Positions 2,150 through 63,925 are shown, counted from the first letter of the stretch. The stretch is 64,000 nt of DNA from Squalus acanthias (GCA_030390025.1 CM059432.1:44642001-44706000); one strand, 5' to 3'. A program made the numbers and translations. The notes: generated from the letters alone by a model not told the origin.

Positions 2150-4037
2150 CTATTTGTGTTTTAGCTTTCTCTTACATGTGCTTCTACGTGGTGCTTCCCC
2201 TGTGGCTTCAGCAGATGTTGAGGCAGCGTGCTCACTTCCCTGCTGCGCCTGCTTAGACGCCTTTGGCGGTCGTCCTCTGGGTTTGGAAGCCTTGGAGGTC
2301 TCTGCAAAAGTCTGCTCCTCCTGCGGCTGTGCAGGGGCAGAGACGGCCATCTCAGTTGGGTGAGACATCTAGGGTTCTGACTGAGGGCTCCGCAGTGGCA
2401 TGGGAGTGTGAGCGCTTGGAGAGGAGCCCCCACTTCCTTGTTGATGACTACCACCATCCCTCTCATGGGCCACCTGCACTTCACTGCTAGCAAGTAGCTG
2501 GAGAGCACCTTGTTGCACATCAGTGGGACCATGAGGACCCATTTCTGTGCTGACATTCCTCATAACAAGGACGTCCATGAACCTCTGGTTTCTCTCCTTA
2601 ATAGATGCCCATCTATCCTCTATAGATGACCATCTATTAAGAAGTGTTACCAAGTTCACCTGAGCCTGGAGATTTATGTTCTCCATGGAGGTTGCCATCC
2701 TTTCCATGGCGGCACCTACATTCGCCAGTGCGTGCACTATGGCATTGCTCATGTTTGACATGGACTCCTCCATTCTCTGCACACTTGCAGTTACCGTGGT
2801 TGCAAACCCAGTCAGAGCCTCCTGCACTTGTCCCTGAAGCTCCAGCTCTGCTCTCTTTCTGGATGGCCCCAGAGACACAGCATCTACATGCAGCTAAGCA
2901 GAGCTAGGAGCGCCCTGCAGCCTCCGACGAGGACTCTCCACTGCTGTCCCTGTCTCCACCATCTGCTCATGCTCACTTGTGAGCTGTGATACATCAGGTG
3001 ACAACACTACTCTATCTTGCAAACTACCCACCGAGGTGTGTCTCTGGCTGGGTGTGCTCATTTCTGCTGACGCTGCTCCCTCAGAGGTTGTAGGTTCCTC
3101 TGAGGAGTCGTCTTGCTCTTCCTCATGGACAGTGGGGAGGGGAAGCTCTCGATGGTTCTGTGGGGGAGTAAAGACATGAGTTAGACATGTGATATTTAGG
3201 TAGCAGACACACCCCATTGTGCAGCTCATCAGAACTTCATTTCTATGAGCATCAGATGCCATATCAGTCACTCATGAAAGCAAAATCACAGGGTTGCAAA
3301 TCAATTCTGTCACCAGCTTGCTGTACTGTGCCCATCTCTCCGTCCCCCACTTCCAACTCCTCTGCACCTCTGCCGATCTCCAGAGCTGCCTCCTCACCGT
3401 TCGTTAGATGCGCCACGGATGGTGGGCCTTCTGTCCTCTCCCTCTTGTGGGCCCTCTTTTCCTGCAGTGAGGGACACCAGTGGAGTTTCAGCAAAATTGA
3501 TGGATTGAGTGTAAAGAATGGATAACAAAGATGTTTAGAGGGAGACAACGATCGAGTGTGGTGCCAATACCAAGGTCCCTCCCTGTGCGTTGTTAGTTGC
3601 TGTCATTGCATAACAGTGAGAGCGAGTGTGAGGGGTGCATAGTAGGATGAAGTGATTCTGTACATAGAGAGGGATGGGTGAGGGTGCCAGGGATGTTGGG
3701 GTAAGTTGGGATGTGCAGGAGTAGGTTGCCACAGCAGAGTGCTGGTGATGAGAAGAGATGGGAAGCAGATTGAAGGTAAGTGTGATGTTATACTTATCTT
3801 TGCTGAGCGCATCAGATCATTAAACCTCTTTCTACACGGCACCCAGGTGTGTGTACACACCGACCTTGCACTTACCTCCTCAGCAATTTGCAGCCAGGCT
3901 GCCTGTGTGTGCTGAAGAGGCTTCCTCCGTTCGTCGGAAGGGAAGAGAACCTCCTTTTGTCCTCTTGCTCCCTCCAAAAGTGCATGGAGGGGGGAGTCAT
4001 CAAAACGGGGAGCAGCCTTGGACCGTTGAGCTGCCAT
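2150..4037 (-). pseudogene. Harbinger Myb/SANT-like DNA-binding protein pseudogene (3-exon structure, first donor mutated)
   Basis: APRFDDSPLHALLEG...AAWLQIAEEVSARSVCTHTWVPCRKRFNDL (ORF 3603-4055), followed by a coiled-coil-like segment and a basic C-terminus RRSTCKRKLKHK. Confidence 0.85.
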
Positions 4038-6180
4038 GCCTGCAGCAACCAGCATTCGGAAGCAGAAGAAAGCAAGTGAAAATCAATGGGGACATAGCCC
4101 CCTTAAATATCCAGGCTCCTAGCGTGTCATCAAGCGCGAGCAGCCGACCCGCACCCACCGATTGGGCCGGCTAGCGCGCATGTTGGCCTTAATGAGGCTA
4201 ATCTGTGGAAAATCATTAATGGAGGGCGGCTGCAACTGGGAGCGGGACCGGAACCCGCAGAGCAGCGAACCTGCCACCATCCCGCCTCCGGGCGGAAAAT
4301 CCAGCCCTATGTGATTGACAATGCACTACGGAGTGGACTAGGCTGTCATTCAGTTGCAAGCAATCAATACAGAACAAAGTGAGCATGGAAATATTAGACC
4401 TATCGGCAATGACCCAGTTATTACATCAGGAGACAAGACTCGGGCAATCCAAGCCCTGTCTGTCCTGCAAAGGCCTCCTTGCTAATATCTGGGCACTGGT
4501 GCCCTGGGTGAGCGAGCTATCCCACAGACTTATTAAACAACAGCCTGATAGACATGAATCGGAGAGTGTAATTATATCAGCTGATATTCCAGCATTCTCC
4601 ATCGCCATCTCTGAATATGTCCTATCTCATTGGCAGGATAGACCGAACAACGGCGTGGCACAGTGGTATACAGTTGGCTGGGCTAGGCTTTGGGAGTCCA
4701 TAGCATCGACTCCAGACCCCAAGAAGTCTCATGTCTTCAGGTCAAACAAGGCCAAGGAAACTTGCTGATTAGCACCTACCACCTCTCTTCTCCCCATCCC
4801 CCAACTAATGAATCAGTACTCCTCCATGTTGAACCCCATTTGGAGAAAGCAAGAGCGTAGAAATTATTCTGGGTGCTGACTTCCAATATCCACCTTCTTA
4901 GGGTAACTCGGATGGAATTAAATTTAAAAAAATCAGCATAGCCAGGATTACCCACATCCAAAGAGCAGATTTTAAAAAAAAATCAGGATTTTATGTTAAT
5001 GGGACTGGCGCATCAGTTTTGCTGTGCTGCAAAGTTATTTGGCACAGAAATTGTACTGCAGCTATGCAACATGTTGAACCGATCTTTTTTGTCTATTCAG
5101 CAGTGGTGACATTCCTGCAGATTATTAACTGTTATTGAGGTGGCACGTTGCATTTCATTTGAGGAGAACTCTGTTGGGTGGGGTCAGATGTCTTTAGTGG
5201 TAATCCTTCCTGGTCGTGAGACCTATAAAATGAGCAGTATTGAACTTTATTCTGAACGTGTAATTTTTATGAGTTGGATTCTTGCCTTATTGTCAGCACT
5301 GGGAATGAAAATATTTGGACAAGGTTATTTCAATTAACCTATGCAATAGGGTAAAACAAAATGCAGTTGCTGTTCTACATTTGCTTTAAGTGTAGGGTGG
5401 TGTCCTTTAACAGTGATCCTGAGTCTCAGTGGACATAATGCACAAGCTGCCTATTATAAGCTCGTCTGAAAGGTCTATTTATTAGCATTTAACAATAGCT
5501 CGGCTGTGTTTTACTTCATTTGGTCACTCGATGCTGTCTGCATGAACACATATGGTAGTATTCCAGTATAATGCTGTTATACACACCAAGATAGTTTTAT
5601 AGTTTCTTTTTAAAAAGGGTAATTTTGTATATTTGTTAAGTTATAGTGCTGCTATCATTGGTGCCATCTAGACTTGCAGGGACATTCCAGATGTCTGGGG
5701 AAAGTCTATACGGAATTGAAAGTTGCTATTCTCAACTTTCAAATGATGTTTGAATGACTGTAATTTAAGCAGGGCACATTCCACAGCAGTGCAATTCCTT
5801 CATATTGCAGAATTGATTCTGTAATATAAAAAGGCTATTGGACTGTATCTACTATAGATTTTTTTGGTTTAAACTGTGAATGATGACGACCTCTGAGAAA
5901 CTCCCTTTGGGTTGCTGAATCTGAGAAGCTGAATCGACATGCACAGATAAAATGCCCAGATTGCTGAAGTAGAGTGGGTTAGCGACTTTGTTATACCTAC
6001 TGGTATGAAACAGGGGGGCAAGTACCAAAACAGCATCTCTCTCGTTCTAGATATACAAACGTTTTTTTTAAGAAGGGCAATTGAAGGCATATAAAGCTCA
6101 ATTTATTATAGCCGCATCTGCAGAAGGTATGACAGAATGACATCATGCAGAACAATTACCTTTTTTTAAAAATCTGCTTC

Positions 6181-38160: not shown

Positions 38161-39453
38161 AAAATGTTGAATGAAGTCAATGGAAATAAAAATCGGGTGA
38201 GATGTAAAACAGGCTGCCGATTCGCTATCACTCGTTTTACAGAATCTCTGTCAAAATCTACCCCATGGTGTAGTGTAGTGTTATTCTGCCAGCTTCCAAT
38301 ATCAAAGATGATCATGAAAAAACTGATAAAACCAATAATCTGAAACAGAATGAAGAGTGTTCTCTGTTGAATTCCTGGGCACACTACAAATATATCTAAA
38401 CATGAAGGTAATAAAAAGTGCTCTCTGGGACTGAAGGTATAATTACTAGTCCTAGCCCTTTTCGGGCCACCCCGGATCAGGCGTATTCCCCAGATGTTCA
38501 CCTTCAACTAAAGTTAGAGACAGCCGAATCCTATAAGAGGCTTAATTGGGTCTAAAGGTTCAGACTATCTCTCCCTAAAGGAACGACTTGAAGATGTTAC
38601 CGTCCTCCAGATAGCACTTTTAATAAGTTAACTAGACTGTAACCTTCTGGATATTATGAGGGTCCGGAAAACTCCCCCAGAATTCTGCAACTCCTCACCA
38701 AAGAGTGTACAGAGATTGAGTTCGCGAGTTTGATACAGAAGTACTATATGAGACAATTCTAAAAATATATAGATTTATTAAAGAACTGACATGTAGTTAA
38801 CAGTTGGTGTTTCAGTCGCAATATTAACAGTTCAAAATACAAATAGCTTACATTTCTTATTCTCAGAGATCCTTATTCTCAAATCTTAACTTCGTTACAT
38901 TTTTACATTTCTACTTATTCTTAATCCAGAATATCCACTAAAATCAAATACCTTTGATTACCCGAGACTCAGAGTTGTAAACTTAGAGCTTGCCTCTGAA
39001 GTTGAGAATCGCTTGCCCCTTCCAGCGACTTCTGTTTTCCCATTTGAAAATCCTATCTTTTATACTCTTTCTCAGTGGTATATCCTTTGAAGTTTTCTGC
39101 TGATGTAAGCTAATTATCTCTAGTCATATTTCTGTTGACTTCTTTCTATTCTTACTGTCAGTTCAGCTGTTAGCTTGCAGACTTGTGTCTGCTGTGTAGG
39201 TGTTCGAAACTTATCATAAAAAACGGTTATAACTGATGTATCTATTTGATGCCATTCTTACGAAGGTCTTCTATTCAATTCTTAAATCACCTCAGCTGGT
39301 TATAAGCAGACGTCGTGTCTCCTAACTGTTCCAAGTTCAATACAAACACAATGTGATTGCTTGGTGCATCTATTGATGCCATATTTACAAAGTCTTCTGT
39401 TTGTATCTTTTACAACATGTAAATTAAAAACACTTCAACTAGGGTGATCTATA

Positions 39454-39653
39454 GTGAGAAGTTGCACAACACCAGGTTATAGTCCAACAGCTTTATTTGA
39501 AATCACAAGCTTTCGGAGCGCTGCTCCTTCGTCAGGTGACTTCGTCAGCGCTCCGAAAGCTTGTGATTTCAAATAATGCTGTTGGACTATAACCTGGTGT
39601 TGTGCGACTTCTCACTTTTGTCCACCCCAGTCCAACACCGGCATCTCCGCATC
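39454..39653. mobile_element. Penelope-like element terminal fragment with inverted (palindromic) arms and a 13-bp TSD
   Basis: AGGGTGATCTATA at 39441-39453 and 39654-39666. 70-bp inverted arms at 39454-39523 and 39546-39615. Contains a hammerhead motif. Confidence 0.85.
39503..39539 (-). ncRNA. Minimal type I hammerhead ribozyme motif
   Basis: Minus strand reads UCAC-CUGACGA-A-GGAGC-AGC-GCUCC-GAAA-GCUU-GUGA: both core boxes, stem I UCAC/GUGA, stem II GGAGC/GCUCC and a palindromic AAGCUU in place of stem III. Confidence 0.8.
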
Positions 39654-41003
39654 AGGGTGATCTATACAATTCTTATTTGCCTCAGTTAGTTGTATTACAG
39701 ACTTATGTCTCCTGTCTTTCATTTGATGTCATATTTATGAAGGCATATGATTCTTTAATGTTCTGTGTTTCTGTTCGAAGTGTTAGTTTTATGACACCTT
39801 AAACTGGGGATTCCATTGTGTTCTTCCGAAAGCTCAGACTTTCTGGAAGCTCCAATCTGCTGCTTCAATCAGGTTTTTGTTTCAGTGACAACAACTGATC
39901 TTTATCTCAAAAGCCTGTATGGTGTTTACAGCTTTGTGTTAACAACCCATCTTATCTCAGAAGCCTGTATTTACAGCTTTAGCTTGTTAAGGCTTCCAGA
40001 TTTTTAAACCCAGTTTGTCATGTTTTAATAATCAAAATTATTTCATAGGATGGTGTATTTTTCTGAAATATGGCTATTCCTTTACAGGATATAGGGAGCA
40101 AAAGCTCACCCATGGAAAGGTCAATGATGCTGAACCCCCCAAAAATCTATAGAGTAAATGAGGATAAGAAATCTCAATAATGTAATGGGGACATTAAAAG
40201 GGGAGGGTCACAATTAGGTACTAAAAATTCTGACAGCCTTTAGAAAGGCTCAAAGGGCATCTCATTAGCAGCCAACAAAGCTGAAAGGACAGGAGACTAA
40301 GAAGTGACAGGCAAAAACAAAGGAAACGGAAACCCAATGTGCAGTCATGAGAATCAGCACGACACACGTGGAGCATTCACAAGATGAAAATTGGCCCCTG
40401 ATGTCCCACAAAGGCCATATGACATTGTGAGGCCTATTAATCCCAGCTTCTTTAGCAAGTATTAAAAAAGCCAAAGGACTCATTTTTACCTCCCCAAATA
40501 GATGTAGCAATCAAATTGTCAATTCTGTTCAAATGCATTATTAGAATAAAAGAAGCATAATTTTCAAGATGTATATAATCTAGGCTCACCATCATCCGCT
40601 CCCGAACTGACCCGACACCAAATGGCGGGAGAGGCAGTTAAGGCAGTTAACAGTTTGTTAACTGCCTGGATAATTCTATTTTAACTGCCTGTTCGGATTT
40701 TGCAGGTTTTTCAGCATGCTGCCCACCTTCAGAAAAACACGCCAGCTGAATCGAGCCGGGTTGAGCAAGGACCTGAATTGTTGCCATATGCTCGAACAGC
40801 TTAAAAGCAGTCCTGCAATCTCTCATTCTTTCACATGCCACAACTTAGTGCTTTGAGGTTTGGGAGACATTTTTCAACTCTACTAATCGTGTGAGTATTG
40901 CAGCTGAAATCCAAGTGCAGTGTGAACTCCTTGGAATACCCTCTGGCCCCTTTGTCTGAGCGCAAACAACCTCCATTCCTCGACTGGGATATATACCAGC
41001 GGT

Positions 41004-42232
41004 ATGGGAACCATTTATATTCTCTCATCCTGGTCGTCAGATTCGGAGGAAGAGCAGCTGCAGCAGCAGCACAAACAGGCACAGCAGCAGCACCAACAAC
41101 AGGAGTGCCAAGCTTCTCAGCCGCCTGATGATGCGCAGGGCAGAGGGTGTCAGCGCAAGCCTGCACCTCACCGCAGGAGATACCCCAACACCAGCTTTAC
41201 AGGCAGAGGATGAGCTTCCTCAGCATAACTGAGCAGCAGTGCCAAAGGAGGCTGAGACTTCCGTGAGACTAAGTCGCTGACATCTGTGCAATGCTGCACC
41301 AACATCTGGAGTCCAGAGGAGCGTGTGGACACTCCTTACCAGTGGCTGTCAAAGTCACCACCGCAGTAAAGTTCTTTGCTTCGGATTCCTTCCAGGGATC
41401 AGCTGCAGACATCGGCGTCATCTCCCAGTCGGCCGCACATGCCTGCATCATGCAGTCTACCGATGCCCTCTTTGCAAAGGTGCACAATTACATCCACTTC
41501 TCCATGGATGAAGTAAGTGTAACCGCGGTTGGCTTTGCAAATAATGCAGGCTTCCCAAGGGTGCAGGGTGTCGTAGACTGCACACATGTGGCCATTAGGG
41601 AACCCCACCACAACCCAGCTGTATTTGTCAACCGCAAGGGATTCCACTCCTTTAACGTCCAGCTGGTGTGTAACCAAAGGAAGATCATCATGCATGTTTG
41701 CGCAAAGTACCCTGGCAGTTGCCATAACTCCTTCATCCTGCAGCAGTCTACAGTGCCTCAGCTCTTCAATCCGCCAACGCAACTTTCCGGATGGCTACTT
41801 GGCGACAAGGGCTATCCCCTGAAAAAGTGGCTCATGACACTGATGAAGAGGCCATCAAACGAGGCTGAGGAGCGTTACAATGAGAGCCACATTTCCACCA
41901 GAAGCATCGTAGAGCAAACCATTGGCTTGCTCAAAATGCGATTCCAATGCCTCGACAGATCTGGTGGAGCCCTGCTGTATGCACCAGCAAGGGTGTCCAG
42001 AATCATTATGGTCTGCTGTGCACTGCACAACATCGCACAGCAGCGTGGCTTAGCGCTGCCCGAGGAACAAGTGGCTCAGCGCAGAGCATCCTCGGAAGAA
42101 GAGGGGGAGGATGAGGAGGAGGAAGAGGATGAGGCACACCTTACGGGGCCGGATGTGCCCAATGCAGCAGCACTTGACCACATTGCTAGCCGTCACGCAA
42201 GGGATGCACTCATCCATGCCAGATTCGCTTAA
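41004..42232 (+). pseudogene. Harbinger transposase with a disrupted N-terminus and an intact 313-aa catalytic portion
   Basis: [52 protein letters not shown] and an acidic tail. Frameshift near 41185 and stops near 41264-41271. Confidence 0.92.
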
Positions 42233-42526
42233 GCTTACACTTCAACCACAGGTGGCTGGCATATGGCTATGAATGTGTGGACGACCTTCTTAACACACCA
42301 TAAATCATCTCTCCAATAAACGATGCTTTCCTATCACTCTCAGCACCATCATTACAAATGCAAGTCGCCCTGAGCCCTCAATGTGCAACTTCCATTTCCC
42401 AGAAGACAGGCGAGAACTTCAACTGTTTGCCATCACTTTTGTTTAATCTCTTCACAAAAGGATGACAATCGAAAATATACAACAGAACAAAACACCCAAG
42501 TGACTACCCAAGTGACTATTTGTGTG

Positions 42527-44410
42527 TTAGCTTCCTCTTACTCGTGCTTCAACGTGGTGCTTCCCCTGTGGCTTCAGCAGATGTAGAGGCACCTTGCTCA
42601 CTTTGATGCTGTACCTGCTTAGATGCCTTTGGCGGGCGTCCTCTGGGTTTGGGAGCCTGGGAGGGCTCTGCAACAGTCTGCTATTCCTACGACTGTGCAG
42701 GGCTGAGACGGCCATCTCAGTTGGGTGAGGACTCTGGGGCTCTGACCGAGGGCTCTGCAGTGGCATGGTTGTGTGAGCACTTGGAGAGGAGCCCACACTT
42801 CCTTGTTGTCTGCCACCAACATCCCTCTCATGGGTCACCCACACTTCACTGCTAGCAAGTGGCTGGAGAGCACCTTGTTGCACATCAGTGGGCGCATGAG
42901 AACCCGTCTCAGTACTGACAGTCCTCATAACGGGGACGTCCATGTACCTCTGGTATCTCTCCTCAATAGATGCCCATCTATCCTCCATAGCAGACCATCT
43001 ATTTAGAAGAGTCACCATGCTCTGTTGAGTCTGGTGAGTTATGTCCTCTGTGGAGGTTGTCACCCTCTCCATGGCGGCACGTTCATGCGCCATTGCCTCC
43101 ACAAAGGCAGTGCTCATGCTGGAGATGGACTCCTCTATTCTCTGCACACTCGCAGTTACCCTGGAGGCAAACCCTGTCAGAGCCTCCTGCACTTGTTCCT
43201 GGGGTTCCAGCACTGCTCTCTCTCTGGATGGCCCCAGAGGCACAGGGTCCACATGCAGCTGAGCAGAGCTAGGAGCGCCCTGCAGCCTCCGACGAGGACT
43301 CTCCACTGCTGTCCCTGTCTCCACCATCTGCTGATACTCACTTGTGAGATGTGATACACCAGGTGGCAACACTACTCTATGTCGCGAAGGCCTCACCGAG
43401 GTGTGCGTTGCTGATGCTGGGTGTGCTGAGTCCTGGTGACGCTGCTCCCTCAGAGGCTGCAGGTTTCTCTGAGGAGTCGTCCAGCTCTTCCTCCTGCACA
43501 GTGGTGAGGGGAGCTCTCGATGGTCCTGTGGGAGAGTAAAGAATAAGTTAGACATATGATTTTTAGGTAGCAGACGCATCCCATTGTGCAGATGATCCAA
43601 AGTCAATCTCTATAAACATCATATGCCATTGCAGTCAATCATGAAATCTAAATGTGAGGGTTGAAAATCTATTCTGTCACCAGCTTCGTCTAGTGCGCCC
43701 GTCTCTCTGTCCCCCACTTCCAGCTCCTCGCTACCTCCCACGATCTCATGCGCAGCCTCCTCAGCACTTGTCAATGTCGCCAGGGATGGTGGGCCTCTCC
43801 TGTCTTTGCTCTCTCCCTCTTATTGTGGGCTATCTTTTCCTGCAAGGAGGGACACAAGTGGAGTTTCAGCGAGAGTGATGGAGTGGCTGTGAAGAATCCA
43901 TAACATTGAAGCTTAGAGGGAGACCAAAATGGAGTGAGGTGCCAAAAGGAAGCTGCCTCCCTTTGCGTTGTTAGTTGTTGTCATTGCATAACAGTGAGAG
44001 CGAGTGTGAGGAGTGCGTAGTAGGATGGTGAAGTGATTCAGTACAGAGAGGTAAGGGTGCAAGGGAAGTAAGGATAAGCTGGGATGCGGAGGAGCAGGCT
44101 GACAATGCAGAGTGCTGGTGATGAGAAGAGAAGGGAAGCAGATTGAAGGTAAGTGTGATGTGATACTCACTTTTGAGGATCGCAGAAGATCATTAAACTG
44201 TTTCTGGCACTGGACCCAGGTGCGTCAACATATGGACCTAGCGCTGACCTCCTCAGCAATGTGCAGCCAGGCTGCCTTTGTCTGCTGAGGAGGCTTCCTC
44301 CGGCCATCAGGAGGGAACAGAATCTCCCTGCGCCCTCTTACTCCCTGCACAAGAGCTTGGAGGGAGTCCTCATTAAACCTTGGTGCAGCCTTGGCTTTTG
44401 CAGCACTCAT
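42527..44410 (-). pseudogene. Harbinger Myb/SANT gene, disrupted
   Basis: MSAAKAKAAPRFNEDSLQALVQGV...AAWLHIAEEVSARSIC* (premature stop). GTGAGT donor at 44170-44165. Long exon-3 ORF remnant 42527-43606. Confidence 0.85.
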
Positions 44411-46115: not shown

Positions 46116-46562
46116 GGGCAACACGGAGTGGCATAGTGTTAGCACAGTGCCTCACAGCACCAGGGACCCGGTTCGAATCTGGCCTCGGGTGACTGTCTGT
46201 GTGGAGTTTGCACATTCTCCCCGTGTCTGCGTGGGTTTTCCTCCGGGTGCTCCGGTTTCCTCCCACAGTCCAAAAATGTGCGGGTTAGGTTGATTTGGCT
46301 ATGATAAATTGACCCTTAGTGTTAGGGGGGGATTAAATATGTGGGGTTACGGGGATAGGATGGGATATATTAGGGGGAATTAAATACGTGGGGTTACGGG
46401 GATAGGGTGGGATGTGTGTCGGTGCAGGCTCGATGGGGATTCTGTGTGAGGAAACAGGGATAGGGTACTGGATTTGGATGATCAGCCATGATCGTATTGA
46501 ATGGTGGAGCAGGCTCGACGGGCCGAATGGCCTACTCCTGCTCCTAGTTTCTATGTTTCTAT
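46116..46562 (+). mobile_element. HE1-type V-SINE (tRNA head, V domain, CR1/HER1 tail)
   Basis: A box gtggcatagtg, B box ggttcgaatc, V-domain gtttgcacattctccccgtgtctgcgtgggttt...cctcccacagtccaaa. Tail shared with the CR1 3' ends at 48700-48790. Interrupts the integrase at FLVLVD. Confidence 0.9.
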
Positions 46563-46871
46563 CTACAAGTACCAGGAAATAATCATTTGCTTTTTCACAG
46601 AAGTCTACATGTACTGTCTGAAAAGATCTACTTGGCCATGACCAGGGTTGTAGTGGAGTTTTGGGTGGTTCAGAGCTAGAAGCATCACACGCTAACTTAA
46701 GCTCACGCTCTGTGTCGTAGTGCACAAGTAGAGCATCGCTAGAGAGACTTCTCTTACAAGCATCGTAAGCTTCCTGTTGGGCTTTCGTCCACTTCCACTG
46801 GACATCCTTATTGAGGAGCTTGTGCATGGTTGCTAACTCAGGTAAGAAATGTGCATATTACTGCACCATTC

Positions 46872-49800
46872 ATAAAACATAGAAAAATAGGAGCAGGAGT
46901 AGGCCATTCGGCCCTTCGAGCCTGCTCTGCCATTCAATGTGATCATGGCTGATCCTCTATCTCAATACCATATTCCCGCTCTCTCCCCATACCCCTTGAT
47001 GCCTTTTGTGTCTAGAAATCTATCTATCTCCTTCTTAAATATATTCAGTGACTTGGCCTCCACAGCCTTCTGTGGTAGAGAATTCCACAGGTTCCCCACC
47101 CTCCGAGTGAAGAAATTTCTCCTTATCTCAGTCCTAAATGTCCTACCCCATATCCTGAGACTGTGACCCCTCGTTCTAGACCCCCCAGCCAGGGGAAACA
47201 TCCTCCCTGCTTCCAGTCTGTCTAGCCATGTCAGAATTTTATATGTTTCAATGAGATCCCCTCTCATTCTTCTAAACTCTAGTGAATACAGGCCTAGTCG
47301 ACTCAATCTCTCCTCATACGACAGTCCTGCCATCCCAGGAATCAGTCTGGTGAACCTTCGCTGCACTCCCTCTATGGCAAGTATATCCTTTCTTAGGTAA
47401 GGAGACCAAAACTGCACACAGTACTCCAGGTGTGGTCTCACCAAGGCCCTATACAACTGTAGTAAGACATCCTTGCTCTTGTACTCAAATCCTCTTGCAA
47501 TGAAGGCCATACAAAAGGTAAATCATGCTTGACTAATCTACTGGAATTTTTTGAGGATGTAACTGGTAGAATAGATAAGGGAGAACCAGTGGATGTGGTG
47601 TATTTGGACTTTCAGAAGGCTTTCGATAAGGTCCCGCATAAGTGATTAGCGTGCAAAGTTAAAGCACATGGGATTGGGGGTAAGGTATTGACTTGGATAG
47701 AGAACTGGTTGGCAGACAGGAAGCAAAGAGTTGGAATAAACGGATCTTTTTCCGAGTGGCAGGCAGTGACTAGTGGGGTACCGCAGGGATCGGTGCTAGG
47801 ACCCCAGCTATTCACAATATATATTAATGATCTAGATGAGGGAACTAGATGTAATATCTCCAAGTTTGCAGACGACACAAAGCTGGGTGGGCGTGTGTGC
47901 TGTGAGGAGGATGCAAAGAAACTCCAGTATGATTTGGACAGATTGGGTGAGTGGGCAGATGCATGGCAGATGCAGTATAATGTGGATAAATGCGAGGTTA
48001 TCCACTTTGGTGGCAAAAACAGGAAGGCAGATTATTATCTGAACGGCAATAGATTGGGAAAAGGGGAAGTGCAACGAGACCTGGGTGTCCTTGTGCACCA
48101 GTCGCTGAAGGTAAGCATGTAGGTGCAGCAGGCGGTTAAGAAGGCAAATGGTATGTTGGCCTTCATAGCGAGAGGATTCGAGTACAGGAGCAAGGATGTC
48201 TTGCTGCAGTTGTACAGAGCCTAGCTGAGACCACACCTTGAGTATTGTGTGCAGTTTTGGTCACCTTATCTGAGGAAGGATGTTCTTGCCATGGAGGGAG
48301 TGCAGCGAAGATTCACCAGACTGATACCTGGGATGGCAGGAATGACGTATGAAGAGAGATTGGGTTGATTAGGCTTATATTCGCTAGAGTTTAGAAGAAT
48401 GAGAGGGGATCTCATTGAAACTTATAAAATTCTAACAGGACTAGACAGACTAGAAGCAGGAAGGATGTTCCCGATGGCGGGGGAGTCCAGAACCAGGGGT
48501 CACAGTCTAAGGATAAGGGGTAAGCCATTTAGGACAGAGATGAGGAGGGATTTCTTCACCCAGAGAGTGGTGAACCTGTGGAATTCTCTACCACAGAAGG
48601 CAGTTGAGGCCAATTCATTAAATATATTCAAGAAGGAGTTAGATATATTTCTTAAGGCTAAAGGTATCAAGGGATATGGGGAGAAAGCAGGGACAGGGTA
48701 CTGAATTGGGATGATCAGCCATGATCTCATTAAATGGCGGGACAGGCTCGAGGGGCCGAATGGCCTACTCCTGCTCCTATCTTCTATGTTTCTCTGTTTC
48801 TAACATACCATTTGCCTTCCTAACTGCTTGCTGCACCTGCATGTTTGCTTTCAGTGACTGGTGTACAAGGACACCCAGGTCCCTTTGTACATCAACAGTT
48901 CCCAATCTATCACCATTTAAATAATACTCTGCCTTTCTGTTTTTCCTACCGAAGTGGATAACTTCACATTTATCCACGTTATACTGCATCTACCATGTAT
49001 TTGCCCATTCACTCAACTTGTCTAAATCGCCTTGAAGCCTCTTTGCATCCTCCTCACAACTCACAATCCCACCTAGTTTCGTGTCGTCAGCAAACTTGGA
49101 AATATTACATTTGGTTCCCTCATCCAAATCATTGATATATATTGTGAATAGCTGGGGCCCAAGCACTGATCCCTGCGGTACCCCACTAGTCACCGCCTGC
49201 CACTCCGAAAAAGACCCATTTATTCCTACTCTCTGTTTCCTGTTTGTTAACCAATTTTCAATCCATGCCAGTATATTACCTCCAATCCCATGTGCTTTAA
49301 TTTTGCACACTAACCTCTTATGTGGGACTTTATCAAAGGCCCTCTGAAAATCCAAATACATCACATCCACTGGTTCTCCCTTATCTATTCTACCAGTTAC
49401 ATCCTCAAAAAACTCCAGTAGTTTCGTCAAAAATGATTTCCCTTTCATAAATCCACTTGACTTTGTCTAATCCCGTTGATATTTTCTAAGTGTCCTGTTA
49501 TCACATCCTTTATAATAGACTCTAGCATTTTCCCTACTACTGATGTTAGGCTAACTGGTCTGTAGTTCCCTGTTTTCTCTCTCCCTCCTTTTTTAAATAG
49601 TGGGGTTACATTTGCCACCCTCCAATCTGCAGGAACTGTTCCATAATTTATAGAATTTTGGAAGATGACAACCAATGCATCCATTATTTCCATGGCTACC
49701 TCTTTTAGTACTCTGGGATGCAGATTATCAGGCCCTGGGGATTTATCAGCTTTCAGTCCCATTAATTTCTCTAGCACTATTTTTTTACTAATAATAATTT

Positions 49801-50840
49801 CCTTTAATTCCTCCTTCTCACTAGACCCTTGGTTCTCTAGCATTTCTGGGAAGTTATTTGTGTCCTCTTCCGTGAAGACAGAACCAAAGTATTTGTTTAA
49901 TTGCGCTGCCATTTCCTTGTTCCCCATTATAAATTCTCCCGTTTCTGACTGTAAGGGACCTACATTTGTCTTCACTAATCTTTTTCTTTTTACATACTTG
50001 TAGAAGCTTCTACAATCCACTTTTATGTTCCTTGTAAGTTTACTCTCATATTCTATTTTTCCCCTCTTAATCAATCTCTTGGTCCTTTTTTGCTGAACTC
50101 TAAACTGTTCCCAATCCTCAGGCTTGCTACTTTTTCTGGCAACTTTATATGACTCCTCTTTGGATCTAATACTATCCTTAATTTCTTTTGTTAGCCATGG
50201 TTGGGCCGCTTTTCCTTTTGTGTTTTTGCACCAGAAAGGAATGTATAACTATTGCAATTCATGCATTCGTTCCTTAAATGTTAGCCATTGTCTATCTACC
50301 GTCATGCCTTTTAATGGAGCTTCCCAATCTATCATAGCCAACTTACTCCTCATACCATCGTAGTTTCCTTTGTTTAGATTTAGGACCCTAGTTTCAGATT
50401 GGACTTCTTCACTTTCCATTTTAATGAAGAATTCTATCATGTTATGGTCACTCTTCCCTAAAGGACCCCACACAACTAGATTATTAATTAACCCCTTCTC
50501 ATTGCACAATACCCAATCTAGGATAGCCTGTTCCCTAGTTGGCTCCTCAATGTTCTGGTCTAAAAAACCATCTCGTACACACTCCAGGAATTCATCCTCC
50601 ACAGTATTATTGCTAATTTGGTTTGGCCAGTCTATACATAGATTAAAGTCACCCATGATTACTGTAGTACCCTTGTTACATGTATCTCTAATTTCCTGTT
50701 TGATGCCATTTCCTCCATTACCACTACTGTTTGGAAGCCTAAATACAATTCCCACCAATGTTTTCTGCCCCATGGTGCTTCTTAGCTCCACCCAGACTGA
50801 TTCTACATCTTGATTTTCTGAGCCAATATCCTTTCTCAAG
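46872..50840 (-). mobile_element. 5'-truncated CR1 LINE (EN to 3' end) inserted in the Gypsy RT, itself interrupted at ~47509-48800
   Basis: ORFs 50249-50848 (GDFN, LDWVL, SDHN), 49445-50074, 48990-49448 (QGSVLGP, FADD) and 46962-47510. Confidence 0.95.
47509..48800 (+). mobile_element. Second CR1 copy inserted antisense in the first
   Basis: ORFs 47688-48122 and 48399-48704, with its own 3' tail ending tatgtttct. The host CR1 rejoins as gaaggcca|aacataccatttgcc. Confidence 0.92.
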
Positions 50841-53060
50841 TTTCCCAAGGAAAGATCTTAACTCAGACACATTCTGTGGCTTTGGAGCATTGATGACAGC
50901 ATCAACCTTTTCCTTCACTGGTTGCAAGTCATTTGCATCAACTTTCAGACCAAGGTACACAAACTTGGGCTGCACAAAAGCACATTTGCTCCTTTTCAAT
51001 TTGACAATGTGGGCATTCAACCTTTGAAGCACTCTATCTAATACTTCTAGATTTTCTTCTCACCACTTGTTCCGATCAGCACATCGTCTTGATTGCATAA
51101 GCAATTTGGAATTCTTTGCAGCTTGGTGTACGAGTACAGTTCCTTGTGTGTGTTGATGGTGAGATACTGTTGACTCTCTTTGTCAACATTCAGCTGAGAA
51201 GAAAACCTTTGACCCAGAGAGTGCTACATACAAATCTTGCGATGTAGGTAACGGGTACTGCTCATCGTCAACTGCTTGGTTGATAGTAACTTTGTAGTCA
51301 CCGCACAAGTGTACAGTTTTGTCTGCTTTGGGCACTACCACAATCGGGGTAGCCCATTCACTTTTATCAGTTTTTACTAGCACTCCATTCTATCTGAGCT
51401 TCGCTAGCTCTTCCTCCACCTGACTTTTCAATGCATAGGGGACCGGCCTTGCCTTACGATAGACAGGCTTTGCGTTGGACTTGATGCGGATATGCGCGTC
51501 ATACGCAGTGATGCCCTCATAACTGTCTGTGAACATGCTTTCGTACTTGTTCAGCATTGTGTCGAGTTGCTTGTTTGAAGTATCTACACTGAAGATGTTT
51601 TTCCAGTCTAGTTCTAACTTTCTAAACCAGTCTTTGCCCATGAGAGTTGGCCTGTTGTTGTAGCTCGCTACAATAATAGGCAGCTTTACTGACTGGCCAT
51701 TGTGTTGAACTGTACATTCCATTTGTCCACATGTCTCTAGGATTTCTCCGGAGTAGGTTTTTAACTCTACGGTACTCTTTGTAAGTGGTATTTGATTAAA
51801 TTTACTCTCATATGTGTCCTTACTCATGATAGAGCAGTCCGCCGCTGTGTCAATACACATATCAATATATTGCTCATTGATCAAAAGTTTTATACGGAAG
51901 TCTTTCTCACGACTGCTAGTGTTGCCACGAGTGGCATAGATACTGTAGATGCCTAATATTTCAACATTAGGTGTGTTCACTTCAATATTGTAAACTCCTC
52001 CCTTTTGTTGTCACTGCTTTGCATTGCCACTAGAATGGTTCTTACTTCCTGCTTTAGATCTAGCTCTGCAAGCTGTTGAAATATGGCTTTACTTCTGGCA
52101 GTGAAAACACTTCGCATTTCCATATCGGCAGGTCTGTGGTAAGTGATTTCCTTTGCAGCGATAACAATTCACTGAACTGCTCTCACCGAAATGCTTTTGA
52201 TCCAGTCTCACAGCTTTAGGTTTGGCGGTGGCTTTGTGACTGTAGACCTCAGCTGCACTAGTCACTTGAGTTGGACGGAGCTCCCTAGCATTCTTAGACG
52301 CTATCTCCATAGATAGGGCAATTTTGCATGCTATGTCAAACGTTAGGTTTGGAGTGTTCAGTAACTTGGACTGTGTGCACTCATCCACCAGTCTATGCAC
52401 AAACTTATCTCGCAATGCACGATCCAAAAATGTGCTGAAGTAACAATGTAAAGACAGGTTCTTAAGAGCTACAGTGATGGTTTCACTTTCTTTTTGGTTT
52501 CTGGTACCAAACTTATAGTTCTCTGCTATCTCTAATGGCTTTGGGTCAAAATGATCCTTGAGTTTCTCGACAATGTCTTCAAATGATGCATCCTTCGCTT
52601 TCCCTGGTGCGAGTATGTTTGTCAATGTTCCGTAGACCTCTGGCCCGATCTCCATTAGATTAAGTTACACCAGAACTGCATTACTTTATTGTGAGCTTGA
52701 ACATTCTCATCTGCATCTTCAGTCTCAATAATGTTATTGACTCTAAAAAACATTTCCATCCGCTCAATGTAAGAACTAAGTGGCTCGTGAGCTCGGTCAT
52801 ACATGCTGAAGCTTCTGATGAATCTCGTAGGCATGGCCATTGTGTCCCAACCCCGTCGAACAGTGACTCAGCACACTACCTGTGAAGGTGTGAGAATCAA
52901 CGCCGCTGTTGCTGTGTTTACATACACGCGATGGCGAAGCACAGACAATAACGGTAAAACATCACAAAAATTCAGTTTAGGTGTCACAAATTCACCTTAA
53001 ACTTTTCCACTCGAAAGCTGAACACTATGTCCTTCCATGATCCCTAAAAGTGGCTTTGGG

Positions 53061-58866: not shown

Positions 58867-60633
58867 AATATTTAAAAAAAGAAAACAGATGAATCAACTA
58901 GCTTCAAGGTCTACCTGCGTCTTGGACAAGAACTCACATAAATCAAACTTGGGTCTCAGTTTTTTATTTAATCATGCCTTATTTCCTGTGGCTTTGATTT
59001 TGGTAGTTTGGTATCTGGAGCACGGTTGTAACTGTTTCGCTGTTAACCTGCAAGTCCTTTGCAGTTACTGCTCAGGTATTCCCTGTGGGGAAGTGGTTCA
59101 AATAGGTTGTGAGTCCAGTTAGAGGCTGACTATTGTTGTTCTTGGAAGTTTGTCTGGGTTGGCTTCTCTCCTTATTATCTCAGCAACCTCTCCAGCTTAT
59201 CTTCAGGTCAGAAAAACAGCTGGAAATACCTAGATTTCTTTTCTTGTACTTTTGTTAAAGATTGTGCAGTTATGATTTATTGAAGTGCAGTTAAGTCTGA
59301 ATCATGATGTTCGCAGCATGATGAACACTATTAAAAATAGATACACGAGATTGTCTTTTTCATTAAATACACTACACCTTTACATTAGACTGTCACTGTG
59401 AACTTAGCAAAACCCAAATCTTGTCAATAGGCTACCTCAGTTCACATCTTTTCATAAATTATTTATGTAACACAGATCTAGTGATGGAATCCCACTATAA
59501 ATAGCTTTAACCAGATTTGATATCAGAGAACCAATGCAGTAGAAAAGTGTCAGTTATAGTGTAGTAGTACTGACGTGGAGTTGTGTGAGCAGGCAGCACA
59601 AAGTTATACCACCATTTCTGGCCCCAGAAATTTGGGGGACATTGTTCATTTGTGAATGAATACTGACCTCACTTTTTCTGCATTGTGCCACCAATACCTA
59701 AAGTTACATCTTATTGAGATGTAGTTTTCTGTATCTGATCTTTGCCATTATTTTCTGCCCTGACCTTCACCATAACAATAAGCCACATCATCTGATAGAT
59801 GAAATAATTCATTTCAACTTGTTGAGATGGTAAACTTGAATAATTTCAAATGACCTCAAACTGGCTCAGCTGATAAGTTAAAATCAGATGGAGTTAAAAA
59901 TAGAACATTATAAAATCAATAATAACTTTATGCAGCTACCACAGCAAACTTATTTACAGGGATCTTATGCCAAAATATAGCCTCTAGTTATTTACTTTTC
60001 TTTGTATGAAGCAATTATTCAGGTAACCTGGCATGTAATGTGAATGAATCCATACGGTGAAATATAGGTATAGACTAAGACACAAGAGTAAACTGACCTA
60101 ACTCTAGTAAGAGGGTAAAAGAGATTTTGATAGATTAACATAGGAAATGCACTGACTTAATCCAGATAGGCTGAAATATCAACCAAGCTGACTTAGATAT
60201 AAATAAATCATTGGTCATCACAACAAATAGAGATTATTATTGATTATCAATCATTAGCAGTCATTACACATATAGGGGGAAAAATTAGGTCGCGCCCCGT
60301 TTGGGGCGCAAATATCATCTGGACGCAAATATTAGCGCCTGGCGCTAATTATCGCCACTGACTGGAAACTTCACTTTTACCGCCCCGGGAGGTGAGTGGA
60401 GCGCTAAATCAGGCGCTGCACACCTGTCTTAAGGCGCAAAGGCCGAGCAGTGAGGCGCTAACTCAGCGCGCGAGCGCAGCGCAGGTGCTGCCAGTTAGCG
60501 AGGGAACACAGACACACTGGCGCCGGCCAGTTCTTAAAGCGGGGGGGGCCAACTTGCTCCCCAGCCACACCCTGCTCATTGCAGCCTTGAATCTCGGCCT
60601 GGAGAGACCTGTGAATCCATTTTGCTGCCAAGG

Positions 60634-62453
60634 ATGGAGAGGGTGAGAGAACGAGCTCAGCGCTTCACAGAGCGGGCCTTGGATGCTCTGGTTGGCGCGG
60701 TGGAGCGCAGAAGATGTATACTCTTCCCTGAGAGTGGCAGGAGGCCTTTGCCACGCGAGTACAGAAGAGTGTGGAGGGAGGTGGCTCAGAGCGTCTCCTC
60801 CAGGAGCATGGTGCCCAGGACCCATGTTCAATGCCGCAAAAAGTTCAACGACCTCACTCGGGTCGTCAGGGTGAGTGGCTTTTTCTCAATACCTCTCCAT
60901 CCCTCCATCTCAACCTCACTCTATGGCCAGAGGGTCTTAAAACCCCAATGCACAACACTCATCCAACACCTATGGCCCTTTCATGAAAAACACACACACA
61001 TTCCACACTTTGCATACAGTAAGGGCTATTCACCTATGGGAGGCACATCAGGCAAGACCATGGCTGCATACAGTAAGGGCTATTCACCTATGGGAGGCAC
61101 ATCAGGCAAGACCATGGCTGTATATTTACTCAGATGCTGTCCTTTTACTTGCAGGCCAAGCTGGCGCATAATAGGAGACAGCAGCAACGGACAGGTGGAG
61201 GGCGGCCTCAGCTGCAACCCCTCAGCGATCTTGAGGAGCGCGTCCACAGGATTGTGGCAAGCCGGGTGATCGGTCCCGTCGCCACTGGAGACGCCGACCC
61301 CGTTCTGGACAGCAATGGTAAGGTCATCACCTTTTTGTCCTCTGTCCTTCCACTTGTCCCTCACAACACCAGCCTTTGACACTTTCAATCCAACGTGCTA
61401 ACTCGCTGCACTTATTCCTCCCTTACTGCCACCCTGTCCTCACGCTAAAGCCACTCTTGTACCTCCCTGCTTTCAGATGGTGATTCACCAGCTGAGGAGA
61501 CGGGCCCTGAAGCTGCCAGTGGGAGTGAAGCTGCAGCCGAGGAGGAAGAGGAAGCCGGAGCATCAGTGCCACCCTCTCCCGAGGAAGCCCATGCCCACAC
61601 TGGGAACACGCCTTCCCTGGAGGGGAGCAGGGGGGAAGGGTCTGATGAGGGTGAAGCTCCAGGACCCAGCGGGCTGCAGCAACGCCATGGGGGTAGGGAA
61701 GAACGGGGGCCTTCTCCCCAGAGGGAGAGTATGCCAGAGACTCCTACTGCAATGGACGCAAAGGAGGAGCGGCTGATCGCAGAAATGAACACCCAGGCGG
61801 TGGGCATGCACACTGAGCTCATGGGTGCAGTGGGAAGGGTGCCCGAATGCATTGAGTCACTGGCAAGGAGTGTGGAGCACTTCGCTGTAGCACAGGCGGA
61901 TGCCACACTAACGCTTAGTGCTGCAATTCAGTCACTGACTGCCGTGATCCCATCTCTGACTGCTCTCATACAGACTCAGATTGAGGCCACGCGAGCAATG
62001 ACTGCTGCCAACCTCGATGGTTCGTTCACATGTCCCCGGGGCTCTCACCGCGCCGCAGCAGGCCAGCAATCTGTGCTCCAGCAGATTGCTCCGGATGCTG
62101 AAGTGCTGCCCCGTGGGAGTGCCAGTGTGTCGGGCGAGCAGGGAGTTGCTGTCCTCTCTCACGATGACAGCATTCCTGCTGCCAACACTGTCACTTCTCC
62201 ACTGCACTTGCCACCACCTGTAGGACAGACTGCTGCCGCCCATGCAGAGTTGGTGCAGTCTGCAGCCGGGCCCTCCAGGCCCAGAACTGGTCGAGGCCGT
62301 CCTTCAGGGGCATCTGCAGTGTCAGGGTCTGACGATCAGCAGCCTTCCACCAGCCTTGCTGCAGCCACTGAGGTCCCATTACGGAGGAGCAGTAGGGTTA
62401 GAAGGGGGGAAGTGCGCAAGGGAAGGAGATCACCCTCGAAGGGCAAAAAGTAG
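60634..62453 (+). CDS. Intact 3-exon Harbinger Myb/SANT-like protein, 458 aa (exons 60634-60870, 61155-61317, 61477-62453)
   Basis: AGG|gtgagt...ttgcag|GCC (phase 0) and ATG|gtaagg...tttcag|AT (phase 1). 1377 nt with no stop. RFTERALDALV...WREVA...QCRKKFNDL, TGGG motif and a basic NLS-like C-terminus. Confidence 0.88.
61011..61118. repeat. Perfect 2 x 54-bp tandem duplication in Myb intron 1
   Basis: tgcatacagtaagggctattcacctatgggaggcacatcaggcaagaccatggc occurs twice. Confidence 0.95.
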
Positions 62454-62765
62454 GAGGTGTGACAAAATGCTGGTCATTTTTTTATTAAAGGCCGAGGTTC
62501 GTGGTCCAACTTTTGTTTAGTGTTTTGGACATTATCTCCAGGTTGTGAGAACCAGTTATGTTAATGACTGTTTTTTTGTGTTTATTTCTATGAGTTTGTC
62601 ATGAGGAAATGACACACACAGAGTTTGTAAAATAAATAAGTTTTTGTATTCAAAATATACATGTTTGGTGTTTGGAATTATTGGTGCCTTGGCCGGCTTA
62701 GGGGTTGCGTGCTGGGTTCATTGATGTTGTTAGCAATGGCAGAAGCCATTTCCACAGCAGGGGCC

Positions 62766-63925
62766 CTAGAAGCGACTTGCTATCAGCCGTTGACGGACGG
62801 CCCTTGCAGTTTCACCATTGTGGGCCGCCCTCCCGCCTTGGTGCTGCTGATGATCATCCTCCTCGTCCTCTTCCTCCTCTTCCTCCTCCTCCTCTGGTGG
62901 TGCTCCAAGGCCTGGTGGCATTGGCTGGGTCCTGACGATTGCCATGTTATGCAACATGCAGCACACAACTACGAAGTTGGATACTCACTCAGGCGAGTAC
63001 TGCAGGGCTCCTCCAGAATGGTCGAGACAGCGGAACCGTTGCTTCAGCACGCCGATTGTGCGCTCAATGATGTTCCTGGTAGCTTGATGGCTCTCGTTGT
63101 ACCGCAGCTCAGCAGGTGTGTTGGGCGTACGGAGCGGTGTCATCAGCCAGGTGCTCAATGGATACCCCTTGTCCCCGAGAAGCCAACCAACTGGCTGATG
63201 CGGTGCCTCGAAAAGTTCTGCCACAGTAGTCTGGCGCAGGATGAAAGCATCGTGGCAGCTGCCAGGATAGTGGGCATTGACAGCGAGTATCAGCTGTCTG
63301 TGGTCACAGACCAACTGAACATTCAAGGAATGGAACCCCTTTCTGTTCCGGAATTCCTCGGCATTCTCATGTGGAGCACGCAAAGCCACATGCGTGCAGT
63401 CAATGGCGCCCTGCACCATGGGGAAGCCCGCTATCCTCGCAAAGCCCAGAGCACGGTCACGCTGCTTGTCTGGGGTCATGGGGAAAGAGATGAACTCTCG
63501 TCTCCATTTAAAGAGGGCATTTGTGACCTGCCTTTGCAGCAATGCACCGCGAACTGGGAGATATTGGCGAGGTCCCCAGCAGCAGCTTGAAATGAGCCAG
63601 TAGCATAGAAGTTGAGAGCCACTGTGACCTTCACTGCCACCGACAGAGACGTCCTGGACCTCAGTTGAGGCTGCAGATCTGGCTGCAGCAGGTGGCAGAG
63701 CTCAGTGACCACCTCCTTGCTGAATCGCAGCCTTCGCAAACACAGCTCCTCAGACAAATGAATGTAGGAGAGCTGTTCACGATATACCCTGGGAGGGTAA
63801 GCTCTCCTGTACATACGCCTGTTGGCCCTCCTCCGTCTGGCCATCATTGCCACTCTCTCTCTGCGTCTCTGTGTCCTCTGATTCAGCTGTAGCAGGACGA
63901 CGCCCCCATTCAGTGCAGCCACCAT
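62766..63925 (-). pseudogene. Harbinger transposase with only two lesions
   Basis: GAIDCTHV, GSCHDAF, GDKGYP and RNIIERTIG are all intact. 1-bp frameshift at ~63533 and an in-frame TGA at 62987-62985. Confidence 0.92.

What the first reader, a model, noticed from the sequence alone, without database searches (positions are those of the whole stretch)
39441..39666. Minimal hammerhead ribozyme inside a palindromic 200-bp retro-insertion with a perfect 13-bp TSD
Seen: insert 39454-39653 is flanked by AGGGTGATCTATA and has 70-bp inverted arms. The minus strand of 39503-39539 reads UCAC CUGACGA A GGAGC AGC GCUCC GAAA GCUU GUGA. The + strand arm is truncated before its CUGANGA box, and cttcgtcag is locally duplicated at the junction. 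Established: Penelope-like retroelements carry minimal type I hammerheads whose palindromic stem III allows dimeric cleavage, and they often insert as inverted terminal repeats. Inference: this is a non-coding, ribozyme-bearing Penelope-type mini-element, with predicted cleavage after GCUU (between 39507 and 39506). Read-through of the full palindrome would form a hairpin that masks the ribozyme. The extra A after CUGACGA is non-canonical.
Basis: partly seen in the sequence, partly recalled or inferred. Interest (0 to 1): 0.75.

Follow-up and report, generated by a model that had tools for sequence, protein, structure and literature searches.

The report
Mirror-image Penelope stub with hammerhead ribozyme
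This 200-base mirror-image insertion is one of more than 14,000 gene-less stubs of a Penelope-type jumping gene in this genome, a known layout carrying a known kind of minimal ribozyme motif; the stubs' lopsided ends and often mismatched halves suggest that each was likely built on the spot by copying the element's RNA start from both cut DNA strands, at least sometimes from two different RNA molecules.

Summary
In detail: insert, 70-bp arms, TSD and hammerhead motif are as described. Nine other copies of the host repeat lack the insert. The stub is two head-to-head partial copies of the 127-nt 5' leader of a Penelope-like element (PLE). A full-length parent with an open 891-aa RT + GIY-YIG-type ORF (Neptune/Nematis-type linker) lies in this genome. 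The 'non-canonical' extra A is a published hallmark of PLE minimal hammerheads. It is unlikely to be a self-propagating mini-element: it lacks the upstream TATA box and junctions differ between copies. Inverted pLTR + one-sided tail + TSD is a known PLE layout, and this scan has noted it before in other genomes (66 notes). Genome-wide counts add two things. The tail is on both arms in only 45 palindromes, against 14,315 matches with at least one tail. And 554 palindromes pair arms of two different loop-II variants (647 and 3,542 pair alike), often as linked two-site haplotypes. This argues against simple self-priming and favours priming from both nicked strands, in part from two RNAs. Cleavage was not tested; about 98% of the palindromes counted appear to copy uncut RNA.

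The parts
39441..39453 (+). Left target-site duplication (13 bp; 12 bp if the last A is element-derived)
   Evidence: empty sites in 9 of 9 host-repeat copies
39454..39539 (-). Short, tail-less arm: PLE leader +4 to +89 (numbered from the inferred transcription start), ending at the upstream inferred RT start site A
   Evidence: leader as in full-length copy L076
39503..39539 (-). Complete minimal type I hammerhead motif: 4-bp stem I, CUGACGA, unpaired A, 5-bp stem II with 3-nt loop, GAAA, palindromic AAGCUU in place of stem III
   Evidence: layout as in PMC4209133; activity untested
39506..39507 (-). Predicted cleavage site after U17 (leader +36/+37)
   Evidence: inferred from standard hammerhead numbering; position 17 is U or C in 205 of 205 parsed arms, but the parse fixed only the preceding GC
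39540..39545 (.). Junction filler, likely a templated copy from the short arm (repair-type join of two cDNA ends)
   Evidence: junction variety; mechanism inferred
39546..39653 (+). Long arm: leader +20 to +127, hammerhead broken (lacks stem I 5' strand and CUGANGA), ends just before the ORF's ATG at the inferred RT start site B
39616..39653 (+). 38-nt one-sided 'tail' (+90 to +127)
   Evidence: tail as defined in PMC3846280 and PMC11167929
39654..39666 (+). Right target-site duplication
38432..40086 (.). Host repeat that was interrupted: about 1.44-kb dispersed repeat with TG...CA ends, likely a solo LTR
   Evidence: LTR identity inferred from its ends only

Best explanation
The insert is a gene-less, likely dead-on-arrival stub of a Neptune-type Penelope-like retrotransposon, made of two head-to-head partial copies of the element's hammerhead-bearing 5' leader that were likely reverse-transcribed from both strands of one cut target site, in at least some family members from two different RNA molecules. 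Steps: (1, inferred from TATA at -30 and an initiator-like TCACTT) the parent is transcribed from +1, so the RNA begins with the hammerhead. (2, inferred; shown in vitro for the anole element, PMC11167929) the RT-endonuclease, probably a dimer, nicks both strands 12-13 bp apart and extends both 3' ends, starting inside the RNA. (3, shown as a genomic pattern) one strand starts near +89 and the other near +127 to +135, almost never both at the second site, which gives the one-sided tail. (4, inferred) both cDNAs run to the mostly uncut, probably capped RNA 5' end only 90-130 nt away, and host repair joins them with trimming, microhomology or filler. (5, shown) the product has no TATA box and no ORF. 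The hammerhead motif is under selection in the parent lineage. In this stub it is predicted to be buried in a 70-bp hairpin upon read-through and has no partner for the dimeric fold.
For: Family size: 9,772 + 1,675 head-to-head palindromes by exact anchors; 14,315 matches with a tail on at least one arm. Parent: the leader runs into a shared ORF start in 4 of 30 loci. L076 holds leader, 891-aa ORF, 3' UTR, TATA and a second leader with tail. RVT_1 matches at E 2.8e-9. The ORF aligns at 38% through the C-terminus of a homolog with a Pfam GIY-YIG hit. It has a CX4CX2C linker, two Cys inside the GIY-YIG core and the DKG motif (against PMC8557442). Asymmetry: in the first 50 palindromes on contig C1 all 50 have one short and one tailed arm (L107 read by eye); tails on both arms 45 genome-wide. 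TSD found in 45 of 50, 9-15 bp. Two templates: loop-II +A variant on both arms 647, on one 554, on neither 3,542. In 11 of 30 fetched mixed copies the +A arm also carries the linked stem-II G and the partner carries neither, against an arm-to-arm background of 1.8% per site (26 of 1,440; 48 of 50 loci counted). The +A arm is the tailed arm in 12 of 30 and the short arm in 18 of 30. 18 palindromes join arms of two clearly different subfamilies. Uncut template: arms begin at or near +1; 1 of 100 arms in the long-gap sample begins at +37 and 6 of 50 listed short-gap matches do (by eye). Motif selection: stem I C-G to U-A double change in 14 arms, U-G in 4, mismatch in 1, ancestral pair in 178.
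Against: Most palindromes have matching arms, which one RNA used twice explains as well. Mixed +A pairs are only 37% of the random expectation (554 against 1,488). A second marker is mixed in only 3 of 50 (by eye). The long-loop subfamily is mixed in only 2 of 50 listed (by eye) and pairs with the main subfamily in 18 against 1,446. This copy's own arms differ at two sites; one is CpG-like, and only one recurs in another copy (L012), so two templates are not shown for this copy. Gene conversion and assembly polishing were not excluded. The start site, cap, dimer and nick order are inferred; public runs were contigs only and cannot show RNA ends. [quoted passage not shown] The parent's own GIY-YIG did not reach a Pfam hit, and no tree was built. 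The stem I covariation is probably one ancestral event counted many times.
Confidence: 0.72

Rival explanations
1. Both strands are primed, but on one RNA molecule copied twice, and mixed arms arise later by gene conversion or template switching.
For: It explains the strict one-tail rule simply, with two start sites on one RNA. Arms match in most copies, including 48 of 50 listed in the long-loop subfamily and 47 of 50 at a second marker.
Against: 30% of +A arms have a non-A partner (554 of 1,848). Linked two-site haplotypes differ as a block in 11 of 30. 18 of 30 mixed copies have both arms reaching +6 or further 5', i.e. two RNA 5' ends. 18 cross-subfamily joins exist. It may still hold for part of the copies.
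Confidence: 0.14
2. The inverted arm is made by self-priming (fold-back) on an antisense or newly made strand, as proposed for rotifer PLEs.
For: PMC3846280 (Discussion) reads head-to-head inverted pLTRs with junction palindromes as self-priming. Some junctions here are perfect palindromes.
Against: Fold-back predicts identical arms at birth, against 554 mixed copies with known haplotypes on each side. Many junctions have trimmed arms or filler. It does not predict a fixed outer end near +89 joined to a clean 12-13 bp TSD.
Confidence: 0.06
3. It is a non-autonomous palindromic mini-element (retrozyme- or SINE-like) that is itself transcribed, cut by its ribozyme and re-inserted.
For: At least 40 near-full-length look-alikes at 92-100% identity, with some junction types recurring. 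Retrozymes are described as non-autonomous PLE derivatives (bioRxiv 10.64898/2026.07.22.740005).
Against: The BLAST list is selected for likeness to the query; position-ordered samples show many junction types. Recurrent junctions sit on microhomologies. No TATA is carried. Retrozymes are head-to-tail tandem repeats. Few arms begin at the cut site.
Confidence: 0.06
4. It is a MITE or microRNA-like hairpin unrelated to retrotransposition.
For: Long inverted arms, a TSD, and Rfam miRNA-precursor matches at E 5e-8 to 1e-3.
Against: All Rfam scores lie far below gathering thresholds and reflect the hairpin alone. The repeats are not terminal (one-sided tail). The sequence is the leader of an RT-encoding element.
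Confidence: 0.01

Closest known systems
EN+ Penelope-like element insertions with inverted pLTR, one-sided tail and TSD (Adineta vaga Pen2a_Av, PMC3846280; general scheme in PMC8557442 Fig. 2 legend)
   Same: Head-to-head inverted pLTR, 30-40 bp tail on one end (38 nt here), TSD, TATA and initiator-like TCACT in the pLTR.
   Different: Here the insert is only the two leader copies (about 200 bp, no ORF), in over 14,000 copies; TSD 12-13 bp against 8-10; arm mismatches argue against the self-priming proposed there.
Minimal type I hammerheads of metazoan PLEs (Cervera and De la Pena 2014, PMC4209133)
   Same: CUGANGA and GAAA boxes, unpaired base between 9 and 10.1, G10.1-C11.1, short stem I, palindromic 15.2-16.2, located in the pLTR; that paper also mentions motif pairs on opposite strands 100-700 bp apart.
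   Different: Stem II is 5 bp rather than 7-8 as in Schistosoma; the predicted triplet is CUU/CUC; the parts of the paper that I read name no shark family (supplements not seen).
PAc, Poseidon element of Anolis carolinensis (Frangieh et al. 2024, PMC11167929)
   Same: Internal RT initiation at two sites that bracket the tail, both strands nicked and extended, predicted dimer, uncut RNA as main substrate.
   Different: The parent here has the CX2-5CxxC linker (Neptune/Nematis type), the hammerhead lies wholly upstream of the ATG, and the genome shows a strict one-site-per-strand rule that the in-vitro assay did not see.
Non-LTR retrozymes (bioRxiv 10.64898/2026.07.22.740005)
   Same: Non-coding, type I hammerhead, derived from PLE pLTRs.
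   Different: Retrozymes are head-to-tail tandem repeats; this is a single head-to-head pair with a TSD.
L1 twin priming
   Same: Priming from both target strands gives an inversion inside a TSD with a microhomology junction.
   Different: In L1 one RNA is primed at two places and the arms do not overlap; here both arms copy the same 5' region, in part from two RNAs.

Membership tests
EN+ Penelope-like element (parent family) | Single ORF with RT domain | tested here: met
   L076 ORF 891 aa, RVT_1 E 2.8e-9, YIDD and DKG motifs; absent from the stub itself
EN+ Penelope-like element (parent family) | C-terminal GIY-YIG endonuclease with CCHH motif | tested here: met
   No direct Pfam hit for the parent, but collinear 38% alignment through the GIY-YIG of P0037; two Cys between the GIY- and YIG-like motifs, His, Arg, Glu, Asn present (against PMC8557442)
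EN+ Penelope-like element (parent family) | Direct pLTRs flanking the ORF, with tail | tested here: met
   L076 has the leader before the ORF and again after the 3' UTR, ending in the tail
EN+ PLE insertion layout | Inverted 5' pLTR, tail on one end, TSD | tested here: met
Neptune clade | CX2-5CxxC linker between RT and EN | tested here: met
   CX4CX2C at about residues 753-761; shared with Nematis
Neptune clade | RT phylogeny with named Neptune references | not tested
   No named reference sequences were available from the tools; no tree built
PLE minimal type I hammerhead | Core boxes, bulged base after A9, G10.1-C11.1, palindromic 15.2-16.2 | tested here: met
   PMC4209133
PLE minimal type I hammerhead | Compensatory changes in stems I and II across subfamilies | tested here: met
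   Stem I: C-G 178, U-A 14, U-G 4, C-A 1 (likely one ancestral change). Stem II: A-U to G-U in 21, C-G to U-A in 2; the stem II parse was constrained and 7 of 205 arms were mis-parsed
PLE minimal type I hammerhead | Match to an Rfam hammerhead model | tested here: not met
   None at E<=10; the motif lacks stem III, so this is expected
PLE minimal type I hammerhead | Self-cleavage (as dimer or protein-assisted) | not testable with these tools
   Needs a bench assay; minimum-energy cofolding did not give the swapped dimer
Non-LTR retrozyme | Head-to-tail tandem units each with a type I hammerhead | tested here: not met
   Single head-to-head pair; no tandem array at the site
Self-propagating non-autonomous element | Copies share one fixed structure descending from a master and carry a promoter | tested here: not met
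   Variable junctions, mixed arms, TATA absent; no tree of same-junction copies was built

The most novel reading that the evidence does not exclude
Penelope-like elements integrate through an asymmetric dimeric complex that holds two RNA molecules. One protomer primes at the tail end and the other about 40 nt upstream, on opposite strands. The palindromic minimal hammerhead serves mainly as the RNA-RNA dimerisation signal that brings the two templates together, much like a retroviral dimer initiation site, rather than as a cutter. That would make PLEs pseudo-diploid and recombining, and would explain inverted pLTRs, one-sided tails and the conserved but barely active ribozyme at once. The two-template part has direct genomic support here; the role of the hammerhead in pairing the RNAs is untested.
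Probability: 0.3. Interest if true: 0.72.

Novelty: new member of a known kind. Interest (0 to 1): 0.4.

Why it matters
The object itself is an ordinary PLE footprint. The family is useful because two of the papers read here call the origin of PLE inverted repeats and tails unresolved (PMC8557442, PMC3846280). More than 14,000 young stubs record both priming events of an insertion within 200 bp. Their counts separate the competing models: 45 two-tailed against 14,315 matches, and 554 mixed-arm copies. They point to a simple two-barcode experiment in an existing in-vitro system. If two RNAs are used per insertion, PLEs have a built-in route to recombination and the minimal hammerhead gets a candidate job other than cleavage.

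Tried and rejected
Rfam scan: no hammerhead family, only sub-threshold miRNA hairpin matches. Folding z-scores of the motif (-1.14), the short arm (-1.70) and the 130-nt leader (-0.92) are not significant. Minimum-energy cofolding of two monomers did not return the swapped dimeric hammerhead; such models do not score three-way catalytic folds, so this says little. PDB sequence search with the parent ORF gave only a retron RT at E 0.33. No second copy in the window. BLAST top hits first suggested a fixed 197/212-bp master; rejected as selection bias after position-ordered samples. The first palindrome pattern excluded short junctions, so it was repeated with a short gap to look for arms starting at the cut site: 6 of 50 listed do, several on the 4-nt stem I microhomology, so in-vivo cleavage is neither shown nor excluded. 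A non-templated G before +1 (42 of 81 arms) suggests copying of a cap, but the partner arm is G-rich there, so it is only a hint. Public runs (4 of 24 laid) were contigs with guessed RNA status from related organisms; they show presence only. Literature searches found no paper showing two-template, two-strand priming for PLEs; most subscription journals and the supplements of the papers read were not seen.

Full report
Observation. The insert interrupts a dispersed repeat of about 1.44 kb (38432-40086, TG...CA ends, likely a solo LTR). Nine of nine fetched copies of that repeat have the site once and no insert. They read G at the last base of the 13-mer, so the TSD is 12 or 13 bp. Rfam gives no hammerhead match at E<=10.

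What it belongs to. The 200-mer has at least 40 near-full-length look-alikes at 92-100% identity (only 40 of 1,167 candidates were scored). Exact-anchor patterns count 9,772 head-to-head palindromes with long junctions and 1,675 with short ones, and 14,315 matches with a tail on at least one arm; reversed controls gave 0. In 4 of 30 loci taken by the 3' end, the sequence runs on into one shared ORF start. Locus L076 holds a whole element: leader, an open 891-aa ORF, 3' UTR, TATA box, second leader and tail. The ORF matches RVT_1 (E 2.8e-9). It aligns at 38% through the GIY-YIG domain of a homolog, though it has no Pfam GIY-YIG hit of its own. [quoted passage not shown] Its closest named homologs are shark proteins at 79-92% identity. 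No tree was built, so 'Neptune-type' rests on motifs.

Anatomy. I number from the A of an initiator-like TCACTT that lies 30 nt below a TATA box (the start site is inferred). The short arm is then leader +4 to +89 on the minus strand and the long arm is +20 to +127 on the plus strand, ending just before the ATG at +128. The 38-nt difference is the PLE 'tail'. Inverted pLTR, one-sided tail and TSD are described for rotifer PLEs (PMC3846280; passages and Discussion read) and as general PLE features (PMC8557442). The stub contains neither TATA box nor ORF.

The ribozyme. The motif fits the minimal type I hammerhead of PMC4209133 (parts 1-2 of 4 read). That paper names the unpaired base between 9 and 10.1 as a conserved feature, so the 'extra A' is typical. 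Among 205 parsed arms (of 347 found; 7 mis-parsed), GAAA is kept in 204. Position 7 varies, position 17 is U or C, loop II varies from 3 to 9 nt, and stem I shows C-G in 178, U-A in 14, U-G in 4 and a mismatch in 1. These arms are related, so this is probably one compensatory event. Activity was not tested. PMC4209133 found no monomer cleavage and weak dimer cleavage. PMC11167929 (parts 1-2 of 4 read) found protein-assisted cleavage that was not needed for insertion. In this genome arms mostly begin at or near +1, upstream of the cut at +36/+37. One of 100 arms in the long-gap sample and 6 of 50 listed short-gap matches begin at +37 (the latter by eye, several on stem I microhomology), roughly 2% of the palindromes counted by extrapolation; palindromes trimmed past the anchors are not counted. 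A read-through transcript of this stub is predicted to form a hairpin of -136 kcal/mol that hides the motif.

How it was likely made. In the first 50 long-gap palindromes on contig C1 (not a random genome sample), all 50 have one arm ending near +89 and one near +127 to +135, and 45 have a TSD of 9-15 bp, mode 12 (a stricter parse gave one tail in 42 of 42 parsed). Genome-wide, tails on both arms occur 45 times. Junctions differ widely, with trimming, microhomology and filler. The anole PLE protein nicks and extends both strands, starts inside the RNA at two sites that bracket the tail, and is predicted to be a dimer (PMC11167929). I infer priming from both 3' ends of a 12-13 nt staggered cut, one at each start site, copying to the RNA 5' end and joining by host repair.

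One RNA or two. A one-base insertion in loop II is on both arms in 647 palindromes, on one in 554 and on neither in 3,542. Fold-back or double copying of one RNA predicts almost no mixed copies; free pairing predicts 1,488. Slippage does not explain them: in 11 of 30 fetched mixed copies the insertion arm also has the linked stem II G and the partner has neither, against 1.8% arm-to-arm background. Either variant can be the tailed arm (12 against 18). Eighteen palindromes join arms of two distinct subfamilies. Against a general rule: a second marker is mixed in 3 of 50, and the long-loop subfamily in 2 of 50 listed with 1,446 pure pairs. Matching arms are expected both from one RNA used twice and from two RNAs of the same source, so the data show two templates in a share of events and leave the rest open. 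For the window's own copy the evidence is one recurring variant. Gene conversion and assembly artefacts were not excluded.

Comparison and novelty. It works like, and by the features tested is, an EN+ PLE insertion with inverted pLTR and tail, reduced to its leader. It is not a retrozyme (bioRxiv 10.64898/2026.07.22.740005; part 1 of 5 and passages read) and is unlikely to be a self-propagating mini-element. Five literature searches found no paper that shows two-template priming for PLEs; subscription journals and supplements were not seen, and L1 twin priming is recalled only. This scan's notes list 66 similar findings in at least 10 genomes, several already proposing twin priming (none by sequence). 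They are unchecked AI notes, read after I had formed my view, and are not counted as support.

Verdict. Real, correctly described, a new member of a known kind. Interest 0.4, carried by the family-wide counts that make an open PLE mechanism directly testable, not by this copy.

Noticed in passing
window 38432-40086: The host of the insertion is a young dispersed repeat (copies 94-98% alike, 3,467 first-look candidates) with TG...CA ends and a 3-of-4 flanking duplication, likely a solo LTR. It holds three diverged 20-nt repeats spaced about 127-137 bp once the insert is discounted.
   Followed up: partly
L076 about 5700-5750, minus strand; also L055: Just after the parent ORF's stop codon lies a second, degenerate hammerhead-like motif with a 5-bp stem II but altered core boxes, kept in both copies seen; possibly a relic of another PLE leader.
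   Followed up: no
L076:5292-5421 minus strand: The leader is predicted to fold into the hammerhead domain plus a 3' hairpin in which the tail pairs with +55 to +63. Start site A falls inside the hairpin and site B just after it; the z-score is only -0.92.
   Followed up: no
L035, L043, L051: Complex insertions in which a leader plus about 60 nt of ORF is followed by a jump back to another leader 5' end, all inside one TSD; they suggest template jumps between RNAs.
   Followed up: no
L054, L046: Longer palindromes in which both arms run upstream through the TATA box into the 3' UTR; these keep a promoter and could be transcribed.
   Followed up: no
L117, L118, L142 against L111, L122, L132: The same loop II/stem II haplotype occurs on two different subfamily backgrounds, which suggests recombination between master elements.
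   Followed up: no
L036, L050, L053, L059: Single-arm insertions with no inverted partner also occur among loci taken by the 3' end; their share was not counted.
   Followed up: no
G000:C1:83406073-83412100: Four identical palindrome junctions within 6 kb, likely a local tandem duplication of the host region.
   Followed up: no
window 330-4021, 40624-44394 and about 60500-63700: Three diverged copies (the first two 79% alike) of an element with two ORFs resembling a Harbinger-type transposase and a Myb/SANT-like protein; the label is recalled, not tested.
   Followed up: no
window about 46300-52700: Nested LINE-like and Gypsy-like ORF fragments, labels recalled from the translations.
   Followed up: no
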